Origin: Minisyncoccota bacterium
GTDB lineage: Bacteria > Patescibacteriota > Minisyncoccia > Phycocordibacterales > UBA9973
Assembly: GCA_031973235.1 (NCBI GenBank)
Contig: DALYDM010000001.1
Location: 16,129-80,128, forward strand
DNA: 64,000 nucleotides
Direction: 5' to 3'
Shown: positions 3,478 to 38,596 of the stretch, piece by piece
How the letters are laid out: each line of letters opens with the position of its first letter
Numbering within the stretch: the stretch's first letter is position 1
Position numbers and translations under genes: made by a program
Notes under the pieces: generated by a model
What the model saw: only the letters and a program-made list of their open reading frames with translations
What the model was told of the DNA's origin: nothing
Database searches by the model: none

Positions 3478-4563
3478 ATGTCTAATTTTTGGAAACAACT
3501 ACCAAAACCATTTTTTGCACTTGCACCGATGGCCGATGTCACAGACGCGGCTTTTCGACAAATCATCTGTAAATATTCTCGGCATGGACAAGAGGGTGGT
3601 GGCCCGGATGTGGTGTGGACAGAGTTTGTATCTGCGGATGGGCTAGTGTCACGTGGGCGAGAAGCGCTGATGAAAGATTTGATGTTTTCAGAAAATGAGA
3701 GACCAATTGTGGTACAACTTTTTTCTTCAAAGCCAGAAAATATGAAAGAAGCATCTCGAATATGTGCCGAGCTTGGATTTGATGGAATAGATATCAATAT
3801 GGGTTGCCCAGATCGTGCCATTGAGAAACAAGGTTGCGGTTCGGCGATGATCAAGACTCCTGAAGTTGCAGTGAAAATTATTCAAGCAGCAAAAGATGGC
3901 ATTGCTCTCGCAGGAAAAGATATTCCTGTGTCAGTGAAAACTCGTATTGGATACAATACAAATGAAATAGATACGTGGATTCCACTTTTACTTAAGCAAA
4001 ATATTTCAGCACTCACGATTCACGCACGAACGAGGAAGGAGATGTCAAAAGTTCCTGCACGATGGGAACATATTAAAGAGGTAGTTGATATCAGAAATAA
4101 ACTCGGTGTTGATACGGTGATTCTAGGCAATGGTGATGTGACTGATATTGGTGACGGACTTAAGAAAGCAAAAGAATCTGGTTGTGATGGTGTGATGATT
4201 GGACGAGCACTTTTCGGGAATCCATGGCTGTTTGATAGAAATAAAAGTGTGGTATCAAAGCCATCATCGTGGCATAGATTTATAACTTGGTTGCTACCAA
4301 AAGAATTGGCCAAGAAAATCGTGGGAGACAAACGTTATACTCAAATGGATGTCCCAATTCATGAAAGACTAAATGTTCTTGTGGAGCATTCCGAGCTTTT
4401 CGAAGAACTGCTTGGTGATGTGAAGCACTTTGCGATAATGAAAAAGCATTTCAAGGCGTATGTGCATGGATTTCGTGGATCAAAAGAACTTCGAGTCAAA
4501 TTGATGGAAGAGGGGAATACTGCCAGTGCAGTAAGGGGAATTGTGGAAAATGCAAAGGTTTAG
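3478..4563 (+). CDS. dus: tRNA-dihydrouridine synthase (Dus family)
   Basis: 361 aa with APMADVTDAAFRQI, VVQLFSSKPE and DGIDINMGCP motifs and TIM-barrel Dus catalytic residues. Confidence 0.9.
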   Translation: MSNFWKQLPKPFFALAPMADVTDAAFRQIICKYSRHGQEGGGPDVVWTEFVSADGLVSRGREALMKDLMFSENERPIVVQLFSSKPENMKEASRICAELGFDGIDINMGCPDRAIEKQGCGSAMIKTPEVAVKIIQAAKDGIALAGKDIPVSVKTRIGYNTNEIDTWIPLLLKQNISALTIHARTRKEMSKVPARWEHIKEVVDIRNKLGVDTVILGNGDVTDIGDGLKKAKESGCDGVMIGRALFGNPWLFDRNKSVVSKPSSWHRFITWLLPKELAKKIVGDKRYTQMDVPIHERLNVLVEHSELFEELLGDVKHFAIMKKHFKAYVHGFRGSKELRVKLMEEGNTASAVRGIVENAKV

Positions 4564-4581
4564 ATTTTAAATAATTTTTTT

Positions 4582-4674
4582 AATCCTCCGCATTTGGAAC
4601 ACGTATATTTGCCTGCTGGCAAATTACTATGCTCGGCTCGTCAGCCTTGCGCAATGTTCCAAATGCGGAGGATT
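4582..4674. repeat. 93-bp element with perfect 20-bp terminal inverted repeats (MITE-like or structured RNA)
   Basis: aatcctccgcatttggaaca (4582-4601) is exactly reverse-complemented at 4655-4674. The 53-nt loop holds two small hairpins (tttgcc-tgct-ggcaaa; ggct-cgtc-agcc). The tttggaacac(g/t)tatat motif recurs at 4695-4712. Confidence 0.5.
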
Positions 4675-4823
4675 CTGGTTTTTGGAAAACCACAAATAAA
4701 TTTAATCTTTCGTTTTGGAACACTTATATATTGTACTCAACGTTGAGCATGGTATACATTTGTGCGTTAGTGTGTTATGGTTAACCTGTTGGTCGCTTTT
4801 TTAAATTTTAAATTCAAACTACT

Positions 4824-4988
4824 ATGAACAATGACGATACAATCATCAAGACTGATGAAGCAACTGTAGAAGTACAAGCTACAGAAGAAGCGACAGTAAA
4901 AGCTGAAGAAGTTGCTGCAGAAGAAGCTGAAATGGCTTCTGAGGAAGCTACTACTGAAGGAGCAGAAGGGGAAGTTGAAGCTGAATAA
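4824..4988 (+). CDS. small highly acidic protein (54 aa; below ORF-track cutoff)
   Basis: ATG at 4824 gives MNNDDTIIKTDEATVEVQATEEATVKAEEVAAEEAEMASEEATTEGAEGEVEAE; a strong intrinsic terminator follows at 4999-5032. Confidence 0.4.
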   Translation: MNNDDTIIKTDEATVEVQATEEATVKAEEVAAEEAEMASEEATTEGAEGEVEAE

Positions 4989-26462: not shown

Positions 26463-26801
26463 ATGTACACAACACATCCATCACAATCAAATATTTTTGG
26501 ACCAACACTCAACCAAAAGATTTTTAGAGTTGTGGTAGTTGTCTTTGCGTTACTTTGTGCACTGTATGCATATATTATCGGTACTATTACGTTCAACGTG
26601 GTCGCTAGAAACACCTTCACTGAAGAGAAAAACACCATCTCTTCTAAGATTGGAGAGCTTGAGGTTGAGTACCTTTCACTTTCCGGAAACGTGACCATGG
26701 ATGTCGCTCGAGCAGCGGGTTTTAGTGAGGCGTCAAATGTTCATTTTGTGAAGAAGGATACTGGTGTATCACGTGCAGCATTTTTGACAAATGAGCTCTA
26801 A
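26463..26801 (+). CDS. ftsL: cell division protein FtsL-like
   Basis: 112 aa, a single TM plus a coiled region, sitting between rsmH and ftsI. Confidence 0.55.
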   Translation: MYTTHPSQSNIFGPTLNQKIFRVVVVVFALLCALYAYIIGTITFNVVARNTFTEEKNTISSKIGELEVEYLSLSGNVTMDVARAAGFSEASNVHFVKKDTGVSRAAFLTNEL

Positions 26802-28506
26802 ATTTACATTTTCAAGAATCACAGGACTTTCGCTTTTACTGTGTCTTATTACAGGTTTGCTTGTGATAAGACTTTTTTATTTGCAGGTACTTAGAGGAGA
26901 TGAATATAGTGAAGAAGTAAGTAATAACTATTCTGTTGAGGAATTGTCAAAATTTGATCGAGGTACAATATATACAAAGAAGAAGGATGGTACACTCGTG
27001 AGTGCGGCTACAACTGTGTCAGGATACACTCTTGTTGTTGATAAAAATTCAATAAATCTCTCACCAGAGAAACTATTTGAAATTATTAAGTCAGCGATTC
27101 CCGATGCAGATAAGAATTTTTTCGATAAAAAGATGAATTCAAAAGGAAGATATATTGATGTGGCAAAGCATGTTACTCAGTCTCAATATGATATGCTAAA
27201 TGAGCAAAAGATTAACGGGATTGCATTTCGAAAGGATAAGTGGAGGTTTTATCCCGGATCAACTCTTGCAGCGCGTACAATTGGCTTTGTGGCATTCAAA
27301 GGGAATTCACTTGTGGGACGATATGGGGTGGAGAGATTTTACAACGAAACCCTAACGTTGAATAAAAATTCACTATACAGCAACTTTTTTACTGAGGTGT
27401 TTTCTACTTTGCATGATTCAGTATTCAAAGAAGACAGTATCGAAGGAGACATTGTCACGACAATCGAACCATCTGTTACTCAATATCTCGAATCTACACT
27501 TTCAAAAACAATTGATAAATACAGTGCAGATGGTGCAGGTGCAATAGTCATGAATCCAAAAACTGGCGAAATATATGCGATGTCGTATTTGCCAACGTTT
27601 GATTTGAATGATTTTTCTTCAGTACAAAATGTATCCACTTTCAATAATCCACTTGTCGAAAATGTGTATGAGTTTGGATCTATTGTGAAGCCGCTTGTGA
27701 TGGCAGCTGGGCTCGATATGAACGCAGTACGACCAGATACAACATATATAGACAAGGGTGAGCTTACAATCAATACTGAAAAGATTCACAACTTCGACAA
27801 AAAAGCTCGAGGAAAAGCAACAATGCAAGACGTGCTCAATCAATCTTTGAATACAGGTATGGTGTTTGTGATGCAACAAATGGGGAAAGATAATTTCAAG
27901 AAATACATGCTTGCGTATGGAATAGGAGAAAAAACTGGTATTGATTTGCCAGGTGAAGTTTCTGGAATCACTACGAACCTCAAAAGTACTCGTGAAATTG
28001 AATTCGCCAATGCGGCATTCGGTCAGGGTGTCGCTATGACGCCAGTGGAAATAATCCGAGCCTTTTCTACACTTGCAAATGGTGGTGTCCCTGTGACTCC
28101 ACGTGTGGGTTCAATGATCAAAACCAAAGATGGTGAGGAAGTAAAAATTGAACCAACATACGGCTCACAACTTATTGCACAAAAGACAGCAGATGATATA
28201 ACCAAAATGCTTGTGACCGTAGTTGACAAAGGTCTCGGAGCAGGACAATACAAGAACGAACATTATAGTGTAGCTGCGAAGACTGGGACTGCACAGATGG
28301 CAATGGAAAATGGGCGAGGGTACTACGAAGACAGATATCTTCACTCGCTCTTTGGCTACTATCCTGCGTACAATCCAAAGTTCTTGGTGTTGATGTATGT
28401 GGTAAATCCAAAAGGTGTACAATATGCAGCAACCACACTTGCAGAGCCATTTTTCGATCTTTCAAAGTACTTGCTTAGTTATTACGATGTTGCACCGGAT
28501 AGATAA
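26791..28506 (+). CDS. ftsI: penicillin-binding protein FtsI-like (class B PBP)
   Basis: 571 aa with a TM anchor and SIVKP, SLNTG and KTGTAQ motifs. Confidence 0.85.
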   Translation: MSSKFTFSRITGLSLLLCLITGLLVIRLFYLQVLRGDEYSEEVSNNYSVEELSKFDRGTIYTKKKDGTLVSAATTVSGYTLVVDKNSINLSPEKLFEIIKSAIPDADKNFFDKKMNSKGRYIDVAKHVTQSQYDMLNEQKINGIAFRKDKWRFYPGSTLAARTIGFVAFKGNSLVGRYGVERFYNETLTLNKNSLYSNFFTEVFSTLHDSVFKEDSIEGDIVTTIEPSVTQYLESTLSKTIDKYSADGAGAIVMNPKTGEIYAMSYLPTFDLNDFSSVQNVSTFNNPLVENVYEFGSIVKPLVMAAGLDMNAVRPDTTYIDKGELTINTEKIHNFDKKARGKATMQDVLNQSLNTGMVFVMQQMGKDNFKKYMLAYGIGEKTGIDLPGEVSGITTNLKSTREIEFANAAFGQGVAMTPVEIIRAFSTLANGGVPVTPRVGSMIKTKDGEEVKIEPTYGSQLIAQKTADDITKMLVTVVDKGLGAGQYKNEHYSVAAKTGTAQMAMENGRGYYEDRYLHSLFGYYPAYNPKFLVLMYVVNPKGVQYAATTLAEPFFDLSKYLLSYYDVAPDR

Positions 28507-29635
28507 AAATCAAATACGAAATACAAAAGCGATTATTTCTCTAGATGTTATTAAACAAAATGCATTACACATACGGAGAATATGTGGTGGATCTGTAAAA
28601 GTGTGTGCAATAATCAAAGCAAATGCATATGGACACGGAATGAAAGAAGTCGCGTTTGCACTAGAAAAAAGTGTGAACTATTTTGGTGTTGCATTGGTGT
28701 GTGAGGGGAGAATGTTGCGCGATTCGGGGATTGAAACACCAATTTTAGTATTGGGAGCTATTGGCTCAGATGAGATTGAAAGTGCGTTGCTTTCTGGACT
28801 CACTATTACAGTTCCTTCAATAGAAAAATTGAATGAAGTAAATCAAAAAGGAATTGCATTAGGAATACTTCCAAAGATTCACCTCAAGATTGATACAGGA
28901 ATGGGAAGAATCGGTGTGCAATGGAATCGAGTTGGTGAATTTTTAAGAACCACAAAAAGAATGAATGATGCAAAAACAATAAACAGTGAGGGAATATATT
29001 CTCATTTTGCGGACAGTATGGATGAGGAATATACAAAATTACAGTTTGAAAGATTTGAAAAAGTAATTGCTTCTGCAAAGGAAATAAATTTAAATTTTGA
29101 ATGTATACATATTAGCAGTTCGCGTTCAACATTTTTGTATCCAGAATATAGAATGACAATGGTTCGACCGGGTGTTGCATTGTATGGAATTGAGCCAGAG
29201 TCAACATCAAATATTCTTCCAAAAGAATTTATTCCTGCATTGAAGTGGGTAACACAAATCACATATTTTAAAGTATTAAAGTGCGGGGATTATGTTGGAT
29301 ACGGAAGAACATATCAAGTGAAAGAAGAATATGAACGAATAGTGACTCTTCCTGTCGGCTATGCAGACGGATTCCCAAGACGATTATCAAACAAAGGATT
29401 TGTGCTAATTCGGGGTAAGAAATATCCCGTAGTTGGAAGAGTGTGTATGGATCAATGTATGGTGTCGCTCGGCAAAGATGGCGAAGGGTATGTGGGTGAT
29501 GAAGTGGTATTGATTGGAAGTGATGGTGCTGCATCAATTTCAGTGGTTGATATTTCAAATTACATTGATACCACTCCACATGAGGTTACTGTGTGTATTT
29601 CCGAGAGAGTTCCGAGAGTGTTTGAGAATAAATAG
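28487..29635 (+). CDS. alr: alanine racemase
   Basis: PLP-lysine motif AIIKANAYGHG and a C-terminal beta domain. Start is taken at ATG 28487 (MLHRIDKN), overlapping the ftsI stop by 20 nt. Confidence 0.85.
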   Translation: MLHRIDKNQIRNTKAIISLDVIKQNALHIRRICGGSVKVCAIIKANAYGHGMKEVAFALEKSVNYFGVALVCEGRMLRDSGIETPILVLGAIGSDEIESALLSGLTITVPSIEKLNEVNQKGIALGILPKIHLKIDTGMGRIGVQWNRVGEFLRTTKRMNDAKTINSEGIYSHFADSMDEEYTKLQFERFEKVIASAKEINLNFECIHISSSRSTFLYPEYRMTMVRPGVALYGIEPESTSNILPKEFIPALKWVTQITYFKVLKCGDYVGYGRTYQVKEEYERIVTLPVGYADGFPRRLSNKGFVLIRGKKYPVVGRVCMDQCMVSLGKDGEGYVGDEVVLIGSDGAASISVVDISNYIDTTPHEVTVCISERVPRVFENK

Positions 29636-29730
29636 ATTAATGGGTGTAATTTATAATACTTTTGGTAATTGCAAAGTATTTCTTGAAAAAAAGTGATAAA
29701 TGATATATGGTGAGTACATCACTATATATT

Positions 29731-29805
29731 GGCCCTATCGTCTAACGGTTAGGACATCGCCTTCTCAAGGCGGTAATCAGGGTTCGATTCCCTGTAGGGT
29801 CACCA
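29731..29805 (+). tRNA. tRNA-Glu (anticodon CTC), CCA encoded
   Basis: ggccctatcgtctaacggttaggacatcgcc-tTCTCaa-ggcggtaatcagggttcgattccctgtagggtcacca parallels bacterial tRNA-Glu (gtcccct tcgtctagagg...ccgcc cTTTCac ggcgg...). Confidence 0.8.
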
Positions 29806-29831
29806 TCTCGTGCTAGCACGAGAAGCATACA

Positions 29832-29858
29832 AAAACAGCCCACTTTGGGCTGTTTTTG
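29832..29858 (+). terminator. rho-independent terminator after tRNA-Glu
   Basis: aaaaacagccc-actt-tgggctgttttt. Confidence 0.75.
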
Positions 29859-29873
29859 TGATAAAATCTAAAT

Positions 29874-30389
29874 ATGCAAGAAAAATTTCCTGAAATAAAA
29901 AAAGAATCAGTACAACATTATAGTATTGGACAAAAGATACGCTCTGAAAATCTAGACGGTTCGTTTTGCGAATCTGAAATAGTGAATATTATAGATTCAC
30001 AAAAAGTGATTACTGTATTAGGGTATAACTATGAAATTAAGTGTCCGATACCTATACTGATATTAGACAAGAAAATATCTGGAAATCTAGCAGCCTATCA
30101 CCCCGAGTTGAATGTTATATTTGCATACAATGACACCTCGCCAGAAGTCATGCACCATGAAATTATTCACTCACTAGAAATGACTAAACAGATTCCAGAA
30201 CAGCTCAATATTTTTTATAAAAAAGTACTAGAGGTATTACCTGATAATTCAAATTTGCAGCCAAATTTTAGAAAAAACATCCACGAATTCGTTGCAGATG
30301 CTTACTCAAAAAATGGGTTAATAGAGACCTTGAAAAACAAGGGCTTATACGATGAGTTTATAAATCTCACAAGATATATATTTCAATAG
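29874..30389 (+). CDS. hypothetical protein with HExxH motif (putative zinc metallopeptidase-like)
   Basis: 171 aa; MHHEIIHSLE is the only recognisable element. It is the first gene after tRNA-Glu. Confidence 0.3.
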   Translation: MQEKFPEIKKESVQHYSIGQKIRSENLDGSFCESEIVNIIDSQKVITVLGYNYEIKCPIPILILDKKISGNLAAYHPELNVIFAYNDTSPEVMHHEIIHSLEMTKQIPEQLNIFYKKVLEVLPDNSNLQPNFRKNIHEFVADAYSKNGLIETLKNKGLYDEFINLTRYIFQ

Positions 30390-30406
30390 TAAGTCAATTA
30401 CCCACT

Positions 30407-30482
30407 GCTCGAGAAGGGTCGTTGTGATATTATAAAAAAATATTAAATAACCTTACAGGGTAACGAATCGAAAAGTTCTATC
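30407..30482 (+). repeat. direct repeat copy A (~76 bp promoter-like element)
   Basis: gctcgagaagggtcgttgtgatattataaaaaaatattaaataaccttacagggtaacgaatcgaaaagttctatc is ~80% identical to copy B at 31755-31830. It contains a TGn-extended -10-like tgtgATATTAT. Extra ctcgagaa(c/g)g units sit at 30482 and 30510. Confidence 0.6.
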
Positions 30483-30564
30483 TCGAGAACGCTCACCTTT
30501 TAGAGAGCGCTCGAGAAGCGTTGAATAAAGTCTACGTTTGTTATGAAAATGTTATAATAAAATT

Positions 30565-31743
30565 ATGTCTGACGAAAACCCACAATCAACTACAGTAAAT
30601 CACGAACACTCGATTATTCCTTTTGAGTGGGCAATAAAGAAAGTTTTAGGACCAACTTTTGATAATCTTGGTCTTGATATTCGTGCTGGGTATGAAAAAA
30701 CAAAAGAGAAGATATTTAAATCAGCAGAAAAAAAACTTAAACCAAATCAAAATAGTGGTAAAGCAAACCTACGAATAGCTTGGGACATTGTCACGCAGGC
30801 GAGTTTTACAGAAAGTGAAATTGGAGCAGAATACTTTGGAGGAATTCTTGCTGCATCAAAAACAGAAGATGGACAAGATGATACTGGTATTTATTATTTA
30901 AACATCACAAAATCACTTTCATCAAAACAATTATATCTTCATTATCTTTTATATAAATCTTTAAATAATCTTTTTGTACGTACTGAATCACTACATAGCT
31001 TGAATGTAGGCATGGGTTCAGAAATAAGTGGTAAAAGAATTTATTTTTATACACTAGAACTTCTAGATCTTGGCGTTAACATTGATACTGATTTTACAGC
31101 TCTTTCAAATAAAGGTTTAATTGGTGATTTTTGGGAAGTAATAACAAAAAAGATAAAACACCCTCTCACAAATAAAGAAGTTGAAATTCCCTGTGCTGTA
31201 TTTACGCCTACAACCTTAGGAATTCAAATGCTCGCAATCGCACAAAATAAATTAAAAGAATATCGAGAATTTAGTAAATCAGATTTTGGTACAATCTTAG
31301 ATATAAAAATTCCTGAATTTTGTGCCTTTTCTGCCGAAGAATTGTTAAAGATTTCTATGACTTCTAATGTTCAAATAATTGAGATAGACAAACCAATCTC
31401 AGAAGTTTTTGAATTTACAATAAATCCTGATAATACTCCGAAATGGATTGAGAATATCGTAGAAGAGAAGGTAAACTCGTCTCCAATAACTGTGGGTACT
31501 GAGTATTCAAATACTAAGAACGGCATTGAATGGACTATTTACACTTGTACGAAATTTGAAAAAGATAAAAAGTTTGAACTTAAACAAAAAGACGATTTCT
31601 ATCACGTAGAGTATATTTATGAAAAAATTTCTGACACTCGAACAAAGCTAACTTATCATGAGTGGATGGAAAATGATTCTGTTCTTGTAGAGCCTTTCGA
31701 AATGAAAACGCTTGAAAGGCTTAAAAAAGTGCTTGAGGTCTAA
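30565..31743 (+). CDS. Abi-alpha (DUF4393)-like N-domain fused to an SRPBCC/AHSA1-like C-domain (candidate abortive-infection/defence protein)
   Basis: The N-terminus (KKVLGPTFDNLGLDIRAGYEKTKEKIF...LYLHYLLYKSL) resembles Abi_alpha. The C-terminus (ISEVFEFTINPDNTPKWIENIVEEKV...KLTYHEWMENDSVLVEPFEMKTLERLKKVLE) resembles the SRPBCC ligand-binding fold. Both assignments are by eye. Confidence 0.35.
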   Translation: MSDENPQSTTVNHEHSIIPFEWAIKKVLGPTFDNLGLDIRAGYEKTKEKIFKSAEKKLKPNQNSGKANLRIAWDIVTQASFTESEIGAEYFGGILAASKTEDGQDDTGIYYLNITKSLSSKQLYLHYLLYKSLNNLFVRTESLHSLNVGMGSEISGKRIYFYTLELLDLGVNIDTDFTALSNKGLIGDFWEVITKKIKHPLTNKEVEIPCAVFTPTTLGIQMLAIAQNKLKEYREFSKSDFGTILDIKIPEFCAFSAEELLKISMTSNVQIIEIDKPISEVFEFTINPDNTPKWIENIVEEKVNSSPITVGTEYSNTKNGIEWTIYTCTKFEKDKKFELKQKDDFYHVEYIYEKISDTRTKLTYHEWMENDSVLVEPFEMKTLERLKKVLEV

Positions 31744-31754
31744 AGTTTATAGAC

Positions 31755-31830
31755 GCTCGAGAAGGGTTGTGATGGTATAATAAAAAAGCCTTAAATAACC
31801 TTATGGGGTAATGAACCACGGGGTTCTATC
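31755..31830 (+). repeat. direct repeat copy B (~76 bp promoter-like element)
   Basis: gctcgagaagggttgtgatggtataataaaaaagccttaaataaccttatggggtaatgaaccacggggttctatc contains a TGG-TATAAT extended -10 and is followed by a ~300-nt ORF-free region. Confidence 0.6.
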
Positions 31831-32130
31831 ACAAAAAGGCTCACTAAGATAGAAAGTCCCACCTAAGTAGGATTTTCGAGTGCATGGTGAAGTCACAGAG
31901 ATTTTTTCCTGACTCTCGCCAAGAAAAAATGTGAGACGGGGTCGCAAGTGTTTACGCCCACAGAATATGCAATGCATATGAGTAGACTTTGTAACTTGTG
32001 ACCTCACAGAACAAGCATGCGAAGCATTCAGTAAATCAGTGAGGATAGTATTTGTGACCGATGGCGCAATAGCTTTTCTGATATACGGTCATAAGTAAAA
32101 AACCACTGGTTTATACCAGTGGCTAGATAA
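31831..32130. ncRNA. candidate structured non-coding RNA or gene remnant (ORF-free, relatively GC-enriched)
   Basis: No ORF longer than 68 aa; several internal complementary segments; preceded by promoter-like repeat B; ends at a bidirectional hairpin ccactggtttataccagtgg (32103-32122). Strand not determined. Confidence 0.3.
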
Positions 32131-32137
32131 TGTTTGT

Positions 32138-32488
32138 TTAAAATGAACTATTATCAACGCATCTTAAGTTCCTTACTAATTGTTCCAACTTACCCTTGTT
32201 GATTACTCCATTACAATACTGAACATTCAAAGTATCACCCAACTTTATTAAGTCTCTTTTGTCATCAATACGACCGATGTAAAGAATAGTTAGTTGAAAC
32301 AATTGTTTTGTCTCAGGATTATTAAATTCGTAATGTTCAAACTTGGCATCTTTTCTGTAACCAACCAAAATGGCTTTGGCGTCTTTAGGATTTCTACATT
32401 CTTTAGCCTTGTTGATTACTGAAACAAATTCTACTAGCAACGCAACACATATGATAGTTGCTACTACTACTTCTGTAACTTTTTTCAT
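32138..32488 (-). CDS. small secreted/anchored protein (hypothetical)
   Basis: 116 aa, N-terminal hydrophobic segment, Cys-containing; terminator hairpin at 32103-32122 followed by T-run on the minus strand. Confidence 0.35.
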   Translation of the reverse strand: MKKVTEVVVATIICVALLVEFVSVINKAKECRNPKDAKAILVGYRKDAKFEHYEFNNPETKQLFQLTILYIGRIDDKRDLIKLGDTLNVQYCNGVINKGKLEQLVRNLRCVDNSSF

Positions 32489-32606
32489 TTTATGTAAGTT
32501 AGTGTTTAATATAATATATCATACTAATCACAAAAGTCAAGTATCAAATTTAAATAAAATTACAAGGCAATCAAACACAAAGTTTTATCTCTAGAAGGCT
32601 CACATG

Positions 32607-32640
32607 GATCTATAAATTCCACTTCTGTGGGATTTATAGA
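32607..32640. promoter_or_regulatory. 34-bp near-perfect palindrome (candidate operator) in divergent intergenic region
   Basis: ATCTATAAATTCCAC-ttct-GTGGGATTTATAGAT. A consensus-like sigma-70 promoter TTGACA-N16-TATAAT follows at about 32721-32748. Confidence 0.45.
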
Positions 32641-32774
32641 TTAGGAGATGTGAAGTCAAAAGTATATTTTTTTACAGATACCTTAGCTCATGTTCCATTG
32701 ATACTTCCTCCGTATATAAGTTGACAAATAATATATATAGTATATAATGTATTAAACCTAAAAAATCTAAAATC

Positions 32775-33050
32775 ATGGTAATAGTTCTAATGCGCATTCT
32801 TGAACTCGCCTATGTAGTATTTGTTACTGCATTGAAAGCGACAGGCTTCATTCTTTGGACATTATTTTTTTTCGAATTGAATTGGAAAATAATGTACTTT
32901 AAAGAAAAAATCTATACGGCCACTAATTTAGAAAATGCACGCGTCGGTTATACTAAGTACTACTTAAATGGAATCGATTGGATAAATGAAAAAGAGATTC
33001 CAGAATCTAGAAAAGAATTCGAAGAGGAATTAGATTTTCCATTAAAGTGA
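32775..33050 (+). CDS. small membrane protein (hypothetical)
   Basis: 91 aa with two hydrophobic helices; strong terminator at 33056-33086 (aaaaaaaccgctg-taattc-agcggttttta). Confidence 0.35.
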   Translation: MVIVLMRILELAYVVFVTALKATGFILWTLFFFELNWKIMYFKEKIYTATNLENARVGYTKYYLNGIDWINEKEIPESRKEFEEELDFPLK

Positions 33051-33215
33051 GTCAGTAAAAAAACCGCTGTAATTCAGCGGTTTTTATTATTCAAAATAAT
33101 AATGAATTAATGTTTGCTATTTCCGGAATCCAAGTCTTTGGCTCAGGATTCAATAAAACCACACCTGTGGGACTTTTTTGGTTCTGTGTGATATTGTGTA
33201 GAAAAATCTACAAAA

Positions 33216-33644
33216 ATGAAAAAACATAAATATGACCCCGCACTGGTAGAGCGAATACTTGCGGATGATGATTATGTTCTTCATTTGTTCGTAGTTCACT
33301 ACCTCAAAACACACGACAAATTATATTTGCCTAAAAGACGCAAAAATGGCGACTATACTATGAAGTGCATACTTCATAAAGAAAGAACACCATCGTTTAG
33401 ATACTCGAGTAAAAGAGGCATATTTAAATGTTTTGGGTGTGGAAGTGGAGGTAACATTCTCACTCTAATCGGGAAGTACTTTGAGCTATCATTTATAGGT
33501 AGTATTAAAAGAGCATTGCAAATGAAGAGTGTCCCTAACCACATCGAAAGTGGAAATAGTCACAAAGTCGAGACAGGTCAATTAAAAATAATTTACCCGC
33601 CACATGCTGATCCATTGAGCGGTGACTACAATCTTCCATTTTAA
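33216..33644 (+). CDS. stand-alone DnaG/phage-primase CHC2 zinc-finger domain protein (primase fragment)
   Basis: CILHKERTPSFRYSSKRGIFKCFGCGSGGNILTLIGKY is the zf-CHC2 signature. No TOPRIM or helicase domain follows; terminator 33650-33686. Confidence 0.7.
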   Translation: MKKHKYDPALVERILADDDYVLHLFVVHYLKTHDKLYLPKRRKNGDYTMKCILHKERTPSFRYSSKRGIFKCFGCGSGGNILTLIGKYFELSFIGSIKRALQMKSVPNHIESGNSHKVETGQLKIIYPPHADPLSGDYNLPF

Positions 33645-33792
33645 ACACAAAAAAAGCCGGACTGTGCAATGCACGGGCCGGCTTTATAAATACTGCGAAT
33701 CTCTCAAAATGAGAGAACAGTACCAGAAGTATACTTTTCTGTGAGAAAAATACAACTTTATTTTCCTTTGAGTTTAGTGATACAATCTTAGT

Positions 33793-34626
33793 ATGTCTAT
33801 ATCTATTATCAAATCAACAGGAGAAGAGCAGTCGTTTAGTAAAAAGAAATTGTGCATGTCTCTCGAGCACGCTGGTGCACCAAAGAAGCTCGCAGATACG
33901 ATTTGTAAGCGAGTGGAAGAGCATATCAATCCTGGAGCATCCACAAGTAAGATTTATCGAGAAGCACTTCGATATTTGATCAAAGAGAATCGCGAGCTTG
34001 CAGCTCGATATAGTATTCGTCGTGGTGTAGCGGCTCTAGGTCCTGCTGGGTTTGTGTTTGAGCAATACGTCGAGGCAATCTTGCAAGCATATGGATTCAC
34101 CACAAAGAGAAATGTCATGATGAAAGGTGAATGTGTGACGCATGAAGTCGATGTGATGGCAATGAAAGACGGTGTGCATTATTTTCTTGAAATGAAATAC
34201 CACAATCAAGTGGGAATCCGTACACATATAAATACTGTGATGTATGCGTATGCTCGATTGCTTGATATTTCTGCTGGTCTTGCAAAAAAAGAAAAGGATA
34301 CACATGAACACAAAATGTGGCTTATCACAAATACCAAATTCACTGATACTTCAATCAAGTATGCAAATTGTAAAGATGTAATTTTGACCGGATGGGATTA
34401 TCCAGAAGGGAATAGTCTTGAAGATATGATTGCATACAAAAAGCTCTATCCTGTGACAGTGCTCCCTTCGATATCTGGCGCAATGCTTGAAGAACTCGCA
34501 AGAAAAAATATTATTCTCGCACAAGATTTGCTCCCATATACTCCCCACGCACTTTCGAAACTCCTTATGATAGATGAGTATCGTGCTCAGAAAATTGCTC
34601 GAGATGTGGTAATGCTTATGAAATAG
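33793..34626 (+). CDS. ATP-cone domain fused to Mrr-like (PD-(D/E)xK) restriction endonuclease domain
   Basis: N-terminal ATP-cone (IIKSTGEEQSFSKKKLCMSLEHAG...ADTICKRVEEHI...ASTSKIYREALRYLIKENRELAARY). C-terminal Mrr_cat-like core (FEQYVEAILQAYGF...HEVDVMAMKDGVHYFLEMKYH, with D...E.K). Confidence 0.65.
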   Translation: MSISIIKSTGEEQSFSKKKLCMSLEHAGAPKKLADTICKRVEEHINPGASTSKIYREALRYLIKENRELAARYSIRRGVAALGPAGFVFEQYVEAILQAYGFTTKRNVMMKGECVTHEVDVMAMKDGVHYFLEMKYHNQVGIRTHINTVMYAYARLLDISAGLAKKEKDTHEHKMWLITNTKFTDTSIKYANCKDVILTGWDYPEGNSLEDMIAYKKLYPVTVLPSISGAMLEELARKNIILAQDLLPYTPHALSKLLMIDEYRAQKIARDVVMLMK

Positions 34627-34687
34627 AGGTCGATTGACCTCTATTTTGTTTTGTTGTATTCTGTGGTCAAACTAAAACGAACCTTAT

Positions 34688-35278
34688 ATGACACAGAACA
34701 ATAAAATTAGAATAATTTCATTTCCTGAAATGATCGAAATGGAATCACTCATGGATCCCTCGCTGCTGCTTCTGGGTCCAGTGCTCGGATCAAATATGGA
34801 TATTCTCGAGTATGTGAAAACACATATTGAGAATACTTTGTCAGATATTAGGTTTCCAGAGAATAAGAAACTTAATATTGTCACTACTCGTTATCTTGGA
34901 GAAAATTTCAACGATATCAATGAAGCTGAGTACAACGAGTGGGTTACTACAATGATAGATGTGCATGTAAAGCGTGATCCCGGAAGAGTTGTCCTGGTTA
35001 TGATACCAAGAGGTGATGGAACTGTAGTAAATCCGATTCGTGGATATGCACGTCACACATCGTTTGAGCTTGGGTATCTCCTTGGTGTGAATGCGCGATT
35101 ATCGGTGTATATCGAGAATGGCTTTTGTGAATACAAATACTATTACCATACAATTATGGGTATTAAGCCAGGCTTACCGATTTGGGCTGATCCGCTCCAG
35201 GCAATTCAAGATGCCCTTATGATGGTATTAAAAACAGACAGGGTATCGGAAAATAGTGGCAACACTGTTACATTCTAA
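34688..35278 (+). CDS. nucleoside 2-deoxyribosyltransferase / DNPH1(Rcl)-like (SLOG-type Rossmannoid) protein
   Basis: N-terminal beta strand KIRIISFP. C-terminal TSFELGYLLGVNARLSVY matches the [GS]x(x)E[LM]GYA catalytic-Glu motif (GMELGYALSQGK in NDT; GVGYELGRAVA in DNPH1). Lies 62 bp downstream of the ATP-cone/Mrr gene on the same strand; terminator 35285-35311. Confidence 0.5.
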   Translation: MTQNNKIRIISFPEMIEMESLMDPSLLLLGPVLGSNMDILEYVKTHIENTLSDIRFPENKKLNIVTTRYLGENFNDINEAEYNEWVTTMIDVHVKRDPGRVVLVMIPRGDGTVVNPIRGYARHTSFELGYLLGVNARLSVYIENGFCEYKYYYHTIMGIKPGLPIWADPLQAIQDALMMVLKTDRVSENSGNTVTF

Positions 35279-35370
35279 TTATTGAATCCCCGCGTAACAT
35301 GCGGGGATTTTGTTTGACTCATTCTTAAAATGTGTTATTATGTATACAAACGTTCAAAATAAAGAAAAAA

Positions 35371-36234
35371 ATGCGTCAATTGAAAATTACCAACCAGTTC
35401 ACAATTAGAGAATCTGATTCACTTACAAAGTATCTGAGTGACATATCTAAAGAGCCGTTACTTACTGTCGAGAGAGAAATTGAACTCACTGTCCGTATCA
35501 AGCTAGGCGATAAACGCGCACTTAATGAACTTGTAAAATCAAATTTAAGATTTGTGGTTTCTGTGGCTAAGCAGTATCAAAATCAGGGCTTGATGCTCGG
35601 TGATTTGATAAACGAAGGGAATCTCGGACTCATAAAGGCTGCAAGTCGTTTCGACGAAACTCGTGGATTTAAATTCATTTCATACGCTGTGTGGTGGATA
35701 CGTCAATGTATTTTGCAAGCACTCGCCGAACAGTCACGAATTGTAAGGCTTCCGTTAAATCAAATCGGAATGATTAACAAGATCAATAAAGCTTTTAGTC
35801 GTTTGGAGCAAGAGTTCGAACGAGAGCCAACAGATGACGAACTTGCATCTTGTTTGGATGTGTCCATTGATGATATTAGCTCAATGTCAAATCAATCAGG
35901 ACGAATTGTGTCACTTGACAGTTCTTATGAGCCGGGCGGTGAAGCTATTATTGAAAGCATTGCTTGTCCTGATGCGGGCCCTTCTCATCCGAGTAATAAT
36001 CTTATTCATGAATCACTTCAACATGAGATCAGACGTTTGCTTGGGTCGTTGACTCCGAGACAGGCAGGTGTGATTAATTTGTACTTCGGGCTCGATGGTA
36101 AACCTCTCACATTAGAAGAAATTGGTGAACGATACGAACTCACCCGTGAGCGAGTGCGTCAAATAAAAGAAACAGCACTTAAAAAACTCAAGAGTGATAG
36201 TCGTTCGAGAGTACTCAAAGCATTTATGAATTAG
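35371..36234 (+). CDS. RNA polymerase sigma-70 family factor (compact RpoD-like, copy 2)
   Basis: Start at internal ATG 35371 ([22 protein letters not shown]...), parallel to copy 1 (MRQFKITKSITNRESASFERYL...). Region 2 is nearly identical ([50 protein letters not shown]); regions 3 and 4 diverge. Confidence 0.85.
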
Positions 36235-37335: not shown

Positions 37336-38061
37336 TTATTGCTTTCCTAAATAATATTTTAACGTATAAATCCAATCTTCTTCGTCTGCCTCATTTTGCA
37401 TTTTTTGTTTGAGAAGCCAATCAAGATATCCTGAATCGATCTTCGCTACTTCTGAGACTTTTTTTCCAGTATGTTTTCCAAAGGTAAACATACTCATTAG
37501 TGACGGGCGTGAAGAAATCTCGAGCATTTGATTTAAAAGTTGATCTTCGTCATCTGTACCGAGTTCTTTTTTGAGTGCATCTTTGAGTCTCGGGAAAAGT
37601 TGTTCGAGTACAAGTACGTCACCAAGTGCGTCGTGAGCCTGTGCCTCAATTTCAATTTCTAAGTAATAACGGAGGTATTGGAGATTGTATCGAGGAATCT
37701 TGTCTTCCTTATCGAGATGTCGAGCAAGACGAAGTGTGCAAATAACATTTTTTGGTACTATTCTTTCTTTTTCAAACATACCCACATCAAATCGTGCATT
37801 GTGTGCGATAAAGATTGAATCTTCGTCTTCAAGAAGTTTTTTGACTGATGTGTATTCTGCACTTTCTTTGAATACTGGTTTGTCTGCAACCATTTTGTTG
37901 GTGATGTGAGTCACAGCACTTGCTTCTGGCGGAATCTTCTTTCCTGGATTGTAGAGTGCTTCAAAAACCGCATCATCGTATTTGTACGCAATTTGGCATA
38001 GTACATCATCGGGTCCATTGCCGGTAGTTTCGGTATCAATAAAAATAAATCTCTTGCTCAT
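37336..38061 (-). CDS. DnaQ-like 3'-5' exonuclease fused to C-terminal DUF3820-like domain
   Basis: Exo motif I FIFIDTETTG, then HNARFDVGMF and HDALGD (DEDDh). C-terminal FGKHTGKKVSEVAKIDSGYLDWLL. Start at ATG 38061 (MSKRFIFID). Confidence 0.7.
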   Translation of the reverse strand: MSKRFIFIDTETTGNGPDDVLCQIAYKYDDAVFEALYNPGKKIPPEASAVTHITNKMVADKPVFKESAEYTSVKKLLEDEDSIFIAHNARFDVGMFEKERIVPKNVICTLRLARHLDKEDKIPRYNLQYLRYYLEIEIEAQAHDALGDVLVLEQLFPRLKDALKKELGTDDEDQLLNQMLEISSRPSLMSMFTFGKHTGKKVSEVAKIDSGYLDWLLKQKMQNEADEEDWIYTLKYYLGKQ

Positions 38062-38137
38062 ATATATGAAGTATATAGTATTTTTATAAATAATGTACTG
38101 TTTAATTTTATTGAATCTAATGGTATAATCCTCGTAT

Positions 38138-38596
38138 ATGAACAATCTTCAAGACTCAATTTCACAGCAAATTAAGGATGCAATGATGGCAAAGGATCAA
38201 GTTCGACTTGATACACTTCGAAGTGTGAAGTCTGCCTTCACTAATGAACTCGTCGCAAAAGGTCGTAAACCCACAGAATCACTTTCTGATGAGGAATGTA
38301 TAGCGGTTATTACAAGGCTTGCAAAGCAACGAAAGGATTCAATTGAGCAATTCACAAACGGCGGACGACCAGAACTTGCAGCAGAAGAGAAGGCCCAGCT
38401 TGATGTTCTTTCGGCATTTCTTCCTCAGATGATGTCAAAAGAAGATGTGATGAATATCGCAATCGCAAAAAAATCAGAACTTGGCATTGAAGACAAATCT
38501 AAAGCAGGAATTCTTATGTCTAATCTGATGAAAGACCTCAAAGGTAAGGCTGACGGTACATTAGTAAAAGAAGTTGTTGATTCTCTATTTTCATAA
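38138..38596 (+). CDS. GatB/YqeY domain protein
   Basis: 152 aa; IKDAMMAKDQVRLDTLRSVKSAFTNE...LAKQRKDSIEQF pattern. Confidence 0.75.
   Translation: MNNLQDSISQQIKDAMMAKDQVRLDTLRSVKSAFTNELVAKGRKPTESLSDEECIAVITRLAKQRKDSIEQFTNGGRPELAAEEKAQLDVLSAFLPQMMSKEDVMNIAIAKKSELGIEDKSKAGILMSNLMKDLKGKADGTLVKEVVDSLFS

What the first reader, a model, noticed from the sequence alone, without database searches (positions are those of the whole stretch)
33793..35311. Two-gene module: ATP-cone + Mrr-like nuclease followed by an NDT/DNPH1-like protein (candidate undescribed defence or nucleotide-surveillance system)
The first gene fuses an ATP-cone, the (d)ATP-sensing allosteric domain of ribonucleotide reductases and NrdR, to a PD-(D/E)xK Mrr-type restriction endonuclease core. 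The second gene, 62 bp downstream on the same strand, has the catalytic-glutamate motif of the nucleoside 2-deoxyribosyltransferase / 2'-deoxynucleoside 5'-phosphate N-hydrolase family (SFELGYLLG). Mrr-type nucleases restrict modified DNA, and DNPH1-type enzymes hydrolyse unusual dNMPs such as hm-dUMP. A nucleotide-sensing nuclease paired with a deoxynucleotide-cleaving enzyme, inside a tRNA-adjacent island, looks like an anti-phage module that senses or depletes (modified) deoxynucleotides. I know of no named system with this composition.
Basis: partly seen in the sequence, partly recalled or inferred. Interest (0 to 1): 0.82.

Follow-up and report, generated by a model that had tools for sequence, protein, structure and literature searches.

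The report
Conserved ATP-cone nuclease beside NDT-fold gene
The two genes are real and their predicted folds hold up, but they are separately transcribed chromosomal neighbours in a tiny-genome (Paceibacteria/CPR) bacterium, most likely involved in nucleic-acid and nucleotide turnover, and not a mobile anti-phage system.

Summary
Both ORFs exist as described: A at 33793-34626 (277 aa) and B at 34688-35278 (196 aa).

**Gene A.** It has an ATP-cone, a PD-(D/E)xK core and an AF1548-like C-terminal domain. It matches PDB 1Y88 at E=2e-33, and the catalytic D120/E133/K135 are invariant.

**The defence reading is not supported.**
- A is a widespread gene under strong purifying selection: at least 575 species genomes, mostly CPR, 96% identical between genomes whose synonymous sites are saturated.
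- Its neighbours differ between lineages and are mostly housekeeping genes.
- B occurs only in one narrow clade, always inside the same conserved block (PBP…A-B-sigma70-RmuC-ExoX). That block lies outside the variable tRNA-adjacent stretch.
- A terminator and a conserved promoter separate A from B.
- Neither gene gives a meaningful PADLOC match or any phage match.

**A possible metabolic link.** Elsewhere A sits beside LOG nucleotide nucleosidases. In Bacteroidota and Chlamydiota it heads a β-CASP RNase / AMP-phosphorylase-like / PRPP-synthetase cluster. This suggests nucleotide turnover.

**Verdict.** New members of known kinds; modest interest.

The parts
33778..33786 (+). Extended -10 promoter of gene A (TGATACAAT). 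It ends 6 nt before the ATG, which implies a leaderless or near-leaderless mRNA.
   Evidence: TGnTAnnAT is invariant in 7 related loci; sequence read.
33793..34626 (+). Gene A, 277 aa: an ATP-cone / PD-(D/E)xK nuclease / AF1548-like C-terminal domain protein.
   Evidence: ORF; Pfam; PDB 1Y88 E=2e-33; 361 homologues at E<=1e-3, the 120 listed being 50-97% identical.
33802..34023 (+). ATP-cone domain of A (residues 4-77). K7, G10, F15 and K19 are invariant.
   Evidence: PF03477 E=3.3e-5 in this protein; 17 of 17 homologues hit, best E=7.2e-8.
34051..34386 (+). PD-(D/E)xK (Mrr_cat/AF1548) nuclease core of A (residues 87-198). E90, D120, E133 and K135 are invariant.
   Evidence: PF04471 is above its gathering score. 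In the alignment to 1Y88 these residues correspond to AF1548 D38/E51/K53, the residues predicted as catalytic in PMC1821046.
34447..34602 (+). AF1548-like C-terminal helical domain of A (residues 219-270).
   Evidence: PF22357 E=2.9e-4 here; 17 of 17 homologues hit, best E=9.7e-12. The 1Y88 alignment runs to residue 256.
34618..34649 (+). Intrinsic terminator of A: a 14-bp hairpin that overlaps the stop codon, followed by a U-run.
   Evidence: Terminator scan. Folding energy -17 kcal/mol, z=-5.8. The equivalent L001 hairpin keeps its pairing with a changed base pair.
34634..34662 (+). Promoter of gene B: TTGACC, 17 nt, TATTCT. The -35 hexamer lies in the 3' arm of A's terminator hairpin.
   Evidence: Promoter scan. 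TTGAC and TAnnnT are invariant in 8 loci, including loci whose B protein is only about 20% identical.
34688..35278 (+). Gene B, 196 aa: a clade-restricted, fast-evolving protein with a nucleoside 2-deoxyribosyltransferase-like (flavodoxin-like) fold.
35060..35086 (+). SFELGYLLG motif of B (residues 125-133). T124, E127 and L128 are invariant. Glu127 is the candidate catalytic residue.
   Evidence: Family alignment. The best hhalign local match places TSFELGY on NDT GLGMELGY, so E127 aligns with E98; this is weak (P=0.04).
35284..35310 (+). Intrinsic terminator of B: a 12-bp G+C-rich hairpin followed by a U-run.
   Evidence: Folding energy -18.3 kcal/mol, z=-5.4; sequence read.
35314..35341 (+). 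Promoter of the downstream sigma-70 gene: TTGACT, 16 nt, TG-TATTAT. The real start of that gene is probably the ATG at 35371.
   Evidence: Promoter scan. Gene lengths in relatives are 286-291 aa.

Best explanation
A and B are two separately transcribed chromosomal genes of a Paceibacteria (CPR/Patescibacteria) bacterium. They are not a mobile defence operon.

**Gene A.** It is the local orthologue of a widespread single-gene family related to AF1548.
- An N-terminal ATP-cone is inferred to bind ATP or dATP, as it does in ribonucleotide reductases and NrdR.
- The ATP-cone is proposed to gate a Mg-dependent PD-(D/E)xK nuclease core (E90, D120, E133, K135).
- A C-terminal helical domain follows the nuclease core. 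Its role is not known; nucleic-acid binding would be a guess.

**Gene B.** It is a lineage-specific, rapidly evolving protein with the nucleoside deoxyribosyltransferase fold.
- Its invariant Glu127 is inferred to attack or activate cleavage of an N-glycosidic bond in a (deoxy)nucleoside or nucleotide.

**Most likely shared theme: nucleic-acid and nucleotide turnover or salvage in a reduced genome.** A would release nucleotides when the adenylate or dATP signal permits. B, like the LOG-type nucleosidases next to A in other CPR lineages, would process nucleosides or nucleotides into base plus sugar phosphate, or exchange bases.

**Shown:** the ORFs, domains, fold, conserved residues, transcription signals, phyletic pattern and synteny.

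**Inferred:** nucleotide binding, nuclease substrate, B's chemistry and any coupling between A and B.
For: **A's architecture and active site**
- Domains. Match to 1Y88 at E=2e-33. Invariant D120/E133/K135.

**A behaves like a core gene**
- It is found in at least 575 species genomes: mostly CPR, but also Aenigmatarchaeota, Nitrospinaceae and Bacteroidota.
- Between the window and L001 it is 96% identical (pN=0.037) although synonymous sites are saturated. This is as constrained as RmuC and more constrained than AspRS or PBP.
- In 70 non-redundant lineages the downstream gene varies: PDDEXK_1 in 12, RsmI-type methylase in 6, HAD in 4, NTP-transferase in 3, then CysRS, RpiB, P-type ATPase and others.

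**B's fold and distribution**
- E127 is invariant.
- No B-family member was found outside the A-B-sigma70-RmuC-ExoX-YqeY block, and A is immediately upstream wherever the contig extends that far.

**Separate transcription units**
- A has its own invariant extended -10 element.
- A terminator and a conserved promoter lie between A and B.
- B has its own terminator.

**Nucleotide theme**
- On a Pontibacter plasmid and a Criblamydia plasmid, A heads the same cluster: β-CASP RNase-like protein, archaeal-type thymidine/AMP-phosphorylase family protein, PRPP synthetase-like protein.
- Parts of that cluster lie next to A in three Bacteroidota MAGs and one CPR MAG.
- A LOG/TIGR00730 gene lies next to A in 5 non-redundant CPR lineages, in three different arrangements.
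- An NDT is central to purine salvage in reduced-genome Borrelia (PMC2764106, listed; title and abstract only were read).
Against: - No biochemical data exist for either family, so substrates are unknown.
- Most A lineages have no nucleotide-metabolism neighbour.
- Separate promoters and terminators, and very different evolutionary rates (B's pN is about 6 times A's), argue against tight coupling of A and B. The adjacency may simply be inherited synteny.
- Local neighbours RmuC and ExoX, and the Cas4-like nucleases beside A elsewhere, fit a DNA repair or recombination role for A equally well.
Confidence: 0.45

Rival explanations
1. A is a housekeeping DNA repair, recombination or structure-specific nuclease (Hjc/Mrr-like) regulated by the adenylate pool. 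B is functionally unrelated to it. On this reading the adjacency is inherited synteny only.
For: - One source (IMG) names a member of A's 90%-identity cluster 'Holliday junction resolvase', and there is a weak Hjc hit (E=0.03).
- Local neighbours are RmuC and an ExoX-type exonuclease.
- In 12 of 70 non-redundant CPR lineages the next gene is a Cas4/RecB-like PDDEXK_1 nuclease.
- A is under strong purifying selection.
- A and B are separate transcription units.
- B is absent from 68 of 70 A lineages.
Against: - This reading does not explain the cross-phylum cluster with the β-CASP RNase, AMP-phosphorylase-like and PRPP-synthetase-like genes.
- It does not explain the repeated LOG adjacency.
- RmuC and ExoX are on the opposite strand.
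- The synteny with Cas4-like genes may reflect a single clade.
Confidence: 0.3
2. One reading: A+B is an undescribed two-gene anti-phage system. The ATP-cone senses (deoxy)nucleotide changes during infection and licenses the nuclease. The NDT/DNPH1-like partner depletes or destroys (modified) deoxynucleotides.
For: - Both folds are used in immunity: PD-(D/E)xK nucleases are common effectors, and NDT-like effectors occur in retrons (own knowledge; papers listed).
- B evolves fast (65%, 61%, about 36% and about 20% identity across genomes whose A proteins are 74-97% identical).
- The slot just upstream of A is variable between relatives.
- No B-family member was found away from A.
- No named system has this composition in PADLOC-DB v2.
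Against: - A is widespread, highly constrained and usually without any B-like partner.
- The pair never appears as a transferable unit outside one clade with identical flanks.
- A terminator and a promoter lie between the two genes.
- There is no integrase, phage gene or known defence gene nearby.
- Neither gene is found in 50,697 phage records or 2.9 million viral contigs.
- A is on only 2 of 72,556 plasmids, both times inside a metabolic cluster.
- B's dN/dS is about 0.1, which gives no evidence of positive selection. dS is saturated, so this ratio is approximate.
Confidence: 0.12

Closest known systems
AF1548 of Archaeoglobus fulgidus (PDB 1Y88; Pfam PF04471 Mrr_cat + PF22357 AF1548-like_C)
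   Same: - Residues 89-256 of A align to it at E=2e-33.
- It has the same PD-(D/E)xK core with D/E/K at equivalent positions, and the same C-terminal domain.
   Different: - The crystallised chain (199 aa) aligns only to residues 89-256 of A; A has an additional N-terminal ATP-cone.
- AF1548 has never been characterised biochemically. Its 'restriction endonuclease' label is a prediction (PMC1821046).
ATP-cone regulatory domains of ribonucleotide reductase and NrdR (PF03477)
   Same: The N-terminal roughly 75 residues match the ATP-cone profile. The K-x-x-G…F…K signature is invariant in the family.
   Different: - Here the domain is fused to a nuclease rather than to a reductase or a zinc-ribbon repressor.
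- This protein scores just below the Pfam gathering score.
- A profile search of the PDB did not retrieve RNR or NrdR cones.
- Ligand binding is untested.
Mrr-type (Type IV) modification-dependent restriction enzymes
   Same: They share the Mrr_cat PD-(D/E)xK catalytic core.
   Different: - A has no Mrr_N or winged-helix modification-reader domain; its N-terminus is an ATP-cone.
- A is conserved and core-like rather than patchy and island-borne.
BDI_0649 of Parabacteroides distasonis (PDB 4MCJ, 'putative nucleoside deoxyribosyltransferase'), YtoQ (8OF6), and canonical NDT/PTD/DNPH1/MilB enzymes
   Same: - All have a Glu-Leu-Gly(-Tyr) motif at the start of the helix after the central strand. 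The best hhalign match puts B's E127 on NDT's nucleophile E98.
   Different: - There is no detectable sequence-profile membership.
- The other NDT residues (Tyr7, Asp72, Asp92) and the DNPH1 phosphate-binding residues are not recognisably conserved.
- B has about 24 extra N-terminal residues and a β-hairpin insertion (109-113).
- 4MCJ itself has no demonstrated activity.
LOG / PpnN-type nucleotide 5'-monophosphate nucleosidases (PF03641, TIGR00730)
   Same: - They are Rossmann-like nucleotide N-glycosidases, so functionally analogous to what is inferred for B.
- They lie next to A homologues in 5 other CPR lineages.
   Different: - No sequence similarity to B is detectable.
Retron-Eco1 (Ec86) NDT-like effector and other NDT/TIR/SLOG domains in defence systems
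   Same: They use the same broad fold class for a nucleotide-targeting effector (own knowledge).
   Different: - There is no reverse transcriptase, ncRNA, sensor or other partner here.
- There is no PADLOC match.
- The gene sits in a chromosomal core context.

Membership tests
AF1548-type ATP-cone nuclease (PF03477 + PF04471 + PF22357 architecture) | N-terminal ATP-cone domain | tested here: met
   E=3.3e-5 and 24.8 bits in this protein (gathering score 25.8). All 17 aligned homologues hit, best E=7.2e-8. RefSeq names the homologues 'ATP cone domain-containing protein'.
AF1548-type ATP-cone nuclease (PF03477 + PF04471 + PF22357 architecture) | PD-(D/E)xK core with the D…(D/E)xK catalytic residues | tested here: met
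   Mrr_cat scores 23.6 bits against a gathering score of 21. D120, E133 and K135 are invariant and align to AF1548 D38/E51/K53.
AF1548-type ATP-cone nuclease (PF03477 + PF04471 + PF22357 architecture) | AF1548-like C-terminal helical domain | tested here: met
   PF22357 E=2.9e-4 here; 17 of 17 homologues hit; the 1Y88 alignment extends through it.
AF1548-type ATP-cone nuclease (PF03477 + PF04471 + PF22357 architecture) | Nucleotide-regulated nuclease activity | not testable with these tools
   No biochemical report on the ATP-cone nuclease family turned up in the paper searches; needs enzymology.
Mrr / Type IV modification-dependent restriction enzyme | N-terminal modified-DNA reader (Mrr_N / winged helix) plus Mrr_cat | tested here: not met
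   Only the catalytic core matches. The N-terminus is an ATP-cone and no Mrr_N hit was found.
Mrr / Type IV modification-dependent restriction enzyme | Patchy, horizontally mobile distribution in defence islands | tested here: not met
   The gene lies in conserved synteny, is under strong purifying selection and has housekeeping neighbours. It has no phage hits and only 2 plasmid hits.
Nucleoside 2-deoxyribosyltransferase / DNPH1 superfamily | Flavodoxin-like α/β fold of the NDT type | tested here: met
   [not shown]
Nucleoside 2-deoxyribosyltransferase / DNPH1 superfamily | Match to an NDT sequence profile (any Pfam NDT family, e.g. PF05014 or PF15891) | tested here: not met
   None of the 8 family members gives an NDT-family hit even at E<=10. 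The comparison with human DNPH1 by hhalign is not significant.
Nucleoside 2-deoxyribosyltransferase / DNPH1 superfamily | Catalytic Glu in the E-x-G motif after the central β-strand (NDT Glu98, DNPH1 Glu104) | tested here: inconclusive
   E127 is invariant and lies in helix 121-133, after strand 100-106. The top hhalign local match aligns it to E98, but only at P=0.04. No 3-D superposition was available.
Nucleoside 2-deoxyribosyltransferase / DNPH1 superfamily | Remaining active-site residues (NDT Tyr7/Asp72/Asp92, or DNPH1 phosphate-binding Ser) | tested here: inconclusive
   These residues could not be aligned. The β1 motif reads LLLGP rather than the IYFGAG of L. leichmannii NDT. The family invariants are H93, G99, P107, T124, E127, L128, Y151 and I173.
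Known or candidate anti-phage defence system (PADLOC-DB v2 criteria) | Profile match of the components to a catalogued system | tested here: not met
   A gives only an 18.6-bit match of its nuclease core to CARF_PDDEXK. B gives nothing credible.
Known or candidate anti-phage defence system (PADLOC-DB v2 criteria) | The two genes co-occur as a unit across unrelated genomes | tested here: not met
   A B-type partner is present in 2 of 70 non-redundant A lineages, all in one clade with identical flanking genes. No B relative is found elsewhere.
Known or candidate anti-phage defence system (PADLOC-DB v2 criteria) | Operon organisation and a defence-island or mobile-element context | tested here: not met
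   A terminator and a promoter lie between the genes. Flanks are mraZ-rsmH-ftsL-PBP-Alr on one side and sigma70-RmuC-ExoX-YqeY on the other. There are no integrase or phage hits.

The most novel reading that the evidence does not exclude
The AF1548-type ATP-cone nuclease may be an energy- or (d)ATP-gated nuclease for scavenging nucleic acids. It would act as the entry point of an unrecognised nucleic-acid catabolic and salvage module in reduced-genome symbionts (CPR, DPANN).

On this reading it repeatedly recruits nucleotide N-glycosidases: the new NDT-fold family B here, and LOG-type enzymes elsewhere. In Bacteroidota and Chlamydiota it travels as an operon with a β-CASP RNase, an AMP-phosphorylase-like enzyme and a PRPP-synthetase-like enzyme.
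Probability: 0.25. Interest if true: 0.6.

Novelty: new member of a known kind. Interest (0 to 1): 0.3.

Why it matters
As a defence-system lead it does not hold up, so it should not be prioritised for phage-challenge screening.

Two things remain of modest value.
- **A well-defined uncharacterised nuclease family.** The ATP-cone-gated PD-(D/E)xK nuclease is strongly conserved across CPR bacteria and some archaea. Its genomic contexts suggest a role in nucleic-acid or nucleotide turnover, which is central to how these auxotrophic episymbionts live.
- **A new, very small sequence family with the NDT fold.** It is invisible to profile searches. It shows how structure prediction can assign folds to CPR orphan genes.

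Tried and rejected
**Searches for B that found nothing useful**
- Pfam, NCBIfam, PADLOC, PHROGs and PDB-sequence searches gave no credible hit.
- The first AF2 run, on a 3-sequence alignment, gave an unusable model (pLDDT 42.6). Adding five more divergent members fixed it.
- An exhaustive HMMER search of 1.84 billion representatives, plus a profile search of 5.8 billion proteins, found only about 9 clusters.
- hhalign of the B family against human DNPH1 was not significant. Against a small NDT/PTD/DNPH1 alignment it gave only a weak motif match.
- The afdb50 fold library was unavailable.

**Ideas considered and dropped**
- I considered that the stand-alone DnaG zinc-ribbon, B and rpoD might be a disrupted dnaG-rpoD operon, with B as a TOPRIM remnant. 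I rejected this because B's fold is NDT-like, not TOPRIM.
- I considered a riboswitch or other RNA element in the conserved 61-nt spacer. Rfam found nothing, and the conservation is explained by a terminator plus a promoter.

**Other negative results**
- No further B relatives lie next to other A homologues.
- No A or B relatives were found in phage or viral collections.
- Literature searches found no experimental study of the ATP-cone nuclease family, of 4MCJ, or of this pairing.
- A profile search of the PDB with the A family did not retrieve RNR or NrdR ATP-cones.
Full report
**1. What is in the sequence.**

ORF listing confirms two same-strand genes: A at 33793-34626 (277 aa) and B at 34688-35278 (196 aa). 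They are 61 nt apart.

Three tRNAs lie in the window. The nearest, tRNA-Glu at 29731-29805, is 4 kb upstream. G+C content dips to 0.31-0.34 only between 30 and 33 kb, not over A and B (0.37-0.40).

**2. Gene A.**

- Pfam gives ATP-cone (residues 4-77, E=3.3e-5, 24.8 bits against a gathering score of 25.8). It also gives Mrr_cat (87-198, 23.6 bits against 21) and AF1548-like_C (219-270).
- All 17 diverse homologues that I aligned hit all three domains.
- Residues 89-256 align to the crystal structure of AF1548 (1Y88) at E=2e-33.
- The family alignment shows E90, D120, E133 and K135 invariant. The last three correspond to D38/E51/K53 of AF1548. Those were predicted as catalytic residues when the protein was first linked to restriction-endonuclease folds (PMC1821046).
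- In the ATP-cone, K7, G10, F15 and K19 are invariant.
- The architecture is therefore real. It is already catalogued: sources name it 'restriction endonuclease', 'ATP cone domain-containing protein' or 'Holliday junction resolvase'.
- I found no experimental work on it.

**3. Gene B.**

- No sequence profile library recognises it.
- It is extremely rare. Searches of about 5.8 billion and 1.84 billion proteins recover only about 9 clusters.
- With an 8-sequence alignment, AlphaFold2 gives a confident model (pLDDT 78, pTM 0.80). The model alternates β and α elements in the flavodoxin-like order.
- Foldseek against the PDB returns six chains of 4MCJ, a 'putative nucleoside deoxyribosyltransferase', at E=5e-6 to 3e-5. 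Nothing else scores below 1e-3.
- In BFVD the named matches include phage 'nucleoside 2-deoxyribosyltransferase-like' proteins.
- The family invariants are H93, G99, P107, T124, E127, L128, Y151 and I173.
- I checked my recalled sequences of human DNPH1 and L. leichmannii NDT against the PDB. They matched DNPH1 entries (a near-exact alignment to 8QHR) and 1F8X (157/157).
- hhalign of the B family against these sequences is statistically weak. Its best local match puts TSFELGY on GLGMELGY, so E127 aligns with the NDT nucleophile E98.
Sequence-profile membership fails, and the rest of the NDT/DNPH1 active site is not recognisable.

**4. Is it an operon?**

No. Each gene carries its own signals.

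- A is preceded by an extended -10 element (TGATACAAT, 33778-33786) that ends 6 nt before the ATG. TGnTAnnAT is invariant in seven related loci, which suggests a leaderless mRNA.
- A's stop codon sits inside a 14-bp hairpin (34618-34649; -17 kcal/mol, z=-5.8) followed by a U-run. L001 keeps the pairing with a changed base pair.
- The 3' arm of that hairpin holds TTGACC. Seventeen nt later comes TATTCT (34634-34662). TTGAC and TAnnnT are invariant in all eight loci aligned, including loci whose B proteins are only about 20% identical.
- B ends with its own G+C-rich terminator (35284-35310; -18.3 kcal/mol, z=-5.4).
- The sigma-70 gene that follows has its own TTGACT-16-TATTAT promoter.
- Rfam finds no RNA family in the region.

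**5. Is it in an island, and do the genes co-occur elsewhere?**

- No B-family member was found outside the block A-B-sigma70-RmuC(-)-ExoX(-)-YqeY, and A is immediately upstream wherever the contig reaches that far. Where contigs are long enough, mraZ-rsmH-ftsL-PBP lies upstream.
- In the window the same flanks are present. PBP is at 26791-28506, followed by alanine racemase, tRNA-Glu, four orphan ORFs and a stand-alone DnaG-type zinc-ribbon gene before A.
- The orphan ORFs have no match in the four relatives with comparable upstream sequence and have no phage, integrase or defence matches.
- The variable stretch therefore lies upstream of A. A and B themselves are in conserved synteny.
- The A family occurs in at least 575 species-level genomes. 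These are mostly Paceibacteria and other CPR, but also Aenigmatarchaeota, Nitrospinaceae and Bacteroidota.
- I collapsed the fetched loci to 70 lineages (less than 85% identity between A proteins). The downstream gene is a Cas4-like PDDEXK_1 nuclease in 12, an RsmI-type methylase in 6, a HAD phosphatase in 4 and an NTP-transferase in 3. Otherwise it is an assortment of housekeeping genes. A B-type gene is downstream in 2.
- An HMM of the B family finds nothing else in any of these loci.
- Neither gene occurs in 50,697 phage records or 2.9 million viral contigs.
- A occurs on only two of 72,556 plasmids.

**6. Evolutionary rates.**

I compared the window with L001. Synonymous sites are saturated for every gene (pS 0.6-0.8, except MraZ at 0.32).

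| Gene | Amino-acid identity | pN |
|---|---|---|
| A | 96% | 0.037 |
| RmuC | 94% | 0.041 |
| AspRS | 90% | 0.071 |
| PBP | 88% | 0.077 |
| B | 65% | 0.217 |
| Zn-ribbon | 66% | 0.240 |
| sigma-70 | about 52% | 0.356 |

- Across genomes whose A proteins are 92-97% identical, B ranges from 36% to 65% identity. In the lineage with A at 74%, B is about 20% identical.
- A's 90%-identity cluster has 23 members. B's has one.
- A is therefore one of the most constrained genes in the neighbourhood.
- B is a real coding gene: it has conserved motifs, a confident fold and dN/dS of about 0.1. It nonetheless evolves about six times faster than A at non-synonymous sites.
- This asymmetry fits a core gene next to a lineage-specific accessory gene better than it fits a co-adapted pair.

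**7. Clues to function from other contexts.**

- On a Pontibacter actiniarum plasmid and a Criblamydia sequanensis plasmid, which belong to two different phyla, the A homologue heads the same cluster. The cluster contains:
  - a β-CASP/RMMBL RNase-like metallo-hydrolase;
  - an archaeal-type thymidine/AMP-phosphorylase family protein (NF003338 at 668 bits; AMP_phos at 480 bits, below its cutoff of 535);
  - a PRPP-synthetase-like protein.
- In Criblamydia this cluster is embedded among phosphoketolase, glycogen phosphorylase and acetate kinase genes.
- Parts of the cluster lie near A in three Bacteroidota MAGs and one CPR MAG.
- In CPR, a LOG/TIGR00730 gene lies next to A in five non-redundant lineages, in three different arrangements. 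This family includes nucleotide 5'-monophosphate nucleosidases.
- Together with B's NDT-like fold, this gives a recurring nucleotide-processing theme around A.
- NDTs are salvage enzymes in other reduced-genome bacteria, for example Borrelia bb0426 (PMC2764106; I read only the title and abstract).
- This evidence is contextual and partly confounded by shared ancestry. Most A lineages show no such neighbour.

**8. Interpretation.**

- Best-supported reading (about 0.45): A and B are independent transcription units in a chromosomal core region. A is a conserved, probably (d)ATP-gated nuclease. B is a lineage-specific nucleoside or nucleotide N-glycosidase/transferase. Any link between them is metabolic, through nucleic-acid and nucleotide turnover.
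- Close rival (about 0.3): A is a repair or recombination nuclease, given RmuC, ExoX and Cas4-like neighbours and the Hjc-like annotation, and B is unrelated to it.
- Defence-module reading (about 0.12): it keeps some support from B's rapid evolution, the adjacent variable slot and the use of both folds in known immune systems. It fails every contextual test applied here.
- The remaining probability covers functions not considered.

**9. Novelty and score.**

- A is a member of a known, catalogued but uncharacterised family.
- B founds a small new sequence family within a known fold.
- The pair is not a demonstrated system.
- Classification: 'new member of a known kind'. Interest: 0.3.
- The most novel reading still open is that the ATP-cone nuclease family is the gated entry point of a nucleic-acid scavenging pathway in CPR/DPANN-type symbionts (probability about 0.25).

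Noticed in passing
L099 1972-6597 (Pontibacter actiniarum plasmid NZ_CP021236) and L100 5001-9608 (Criblamydia sequanensis plasmid NZ_LK031773); also L082, L083, L085, L056: Homologues of gene A head a conserved four-gene cluster in two different phyla. The order is ATP-cone nuclease, β-CASP/RMMBL RNase-like hydrolase, archaeal-type thymidine/AMP-phosphorylase family protein, PRPP-synthetase-like protein. Parts of the cluster recur next to A in Bacteroidota MAGs. I found no paper describing it.
   Followed up: partly
L010 5830-6534, L053 3288-4001, L041 3086-3847(-), L057 3266-3946(-), L059 3268-4017(-): A LOG/TIGR00730 (Lysine_decarbox/SLOG) gene lies directly next to the A homologue in five non-redundant CPR lineages. 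It appears in three different arrangements, which is more than chance adjacency would suggest.
   Followed up: partly
window 28507-33215 (compare L001 5756-5976, L007 3353-5000, L101 2219-4000): The slot between the PBP gene and gene A carries different cargo in each close relative. In the window it holds alanine racemase, tRNA-Glu and four orphan low-GC ORFs (29874-33050) with no database matches, followed by a stand-alone DnaG-type zinc-ribbon gene at 33216-33644. Elsewhere it holds a Vpar_1526-family gene or an AAA_33 kinase-like gene.
   Followed up: partly
window 35371-36234 (+): The sigma-70 gene downstream of B diverges far faster than its flanks: 52% identity to L001 against about 90% for neighbouring genes. 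The divergence is also non-monotonic, at 65% to the more distant L007. This suggests allelic replacement or an alternative, rapidly evolving sigma factor. Its true start is probably the ATG at 35371, not the GTG at 35332.
   Followed up: partly
window 33216-33644 (+): A 142-aa protein consists only of a DnaG-type CHC2 zinc ribbon, with no primase or TOPRIM domain. It is present in some relatives (66-70% identical) and absent in others. It has its own strong terminator within 33653-33685 (-22 kcal/mol).
   Followed up: partly
window 33778-33795 and 34618-34662: Gene A appears to be leaderless: an invariant extended -10 element ends 6 nt before the ATG. The -35 hexamer of B's promoter is embedded in the 3' arm of A's terminator hairpin, an unusually compact terminator-promoter overlap.
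   Followed up: yes
L060, L066, L067, L071, L072, L075-L078, L084, L089, L092-L094 (A at about 4000-4830): In 12-14 CPR lineages the order is MnmA (tRNA 2-thiouridylase), A, then a Cas4/RecB-like PDDEXK_1 nuclease, often with overlapping or near-abutting genes. Pairwise A identity among these lineages goes down to about 41%.
   Followed up: partly
window 33793-34626 (gene A residues 21, 38, 114, 193): Cys21 and Cys38 (inside the ATP-cone) are invariant, and Cys114 and Cys193 nearly so, across the family. This could be a metal-binding or redox-sensitive site that is not part of the canonical ATP-cone.
   Followed up: no
window 37336-38145 (-): The ExoX-like ORF as listed (269 aa, TTG start) is about 28 aa longer than its orthologues (240-242 aa). 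The real start is probably near 38061.
   Followed up: no
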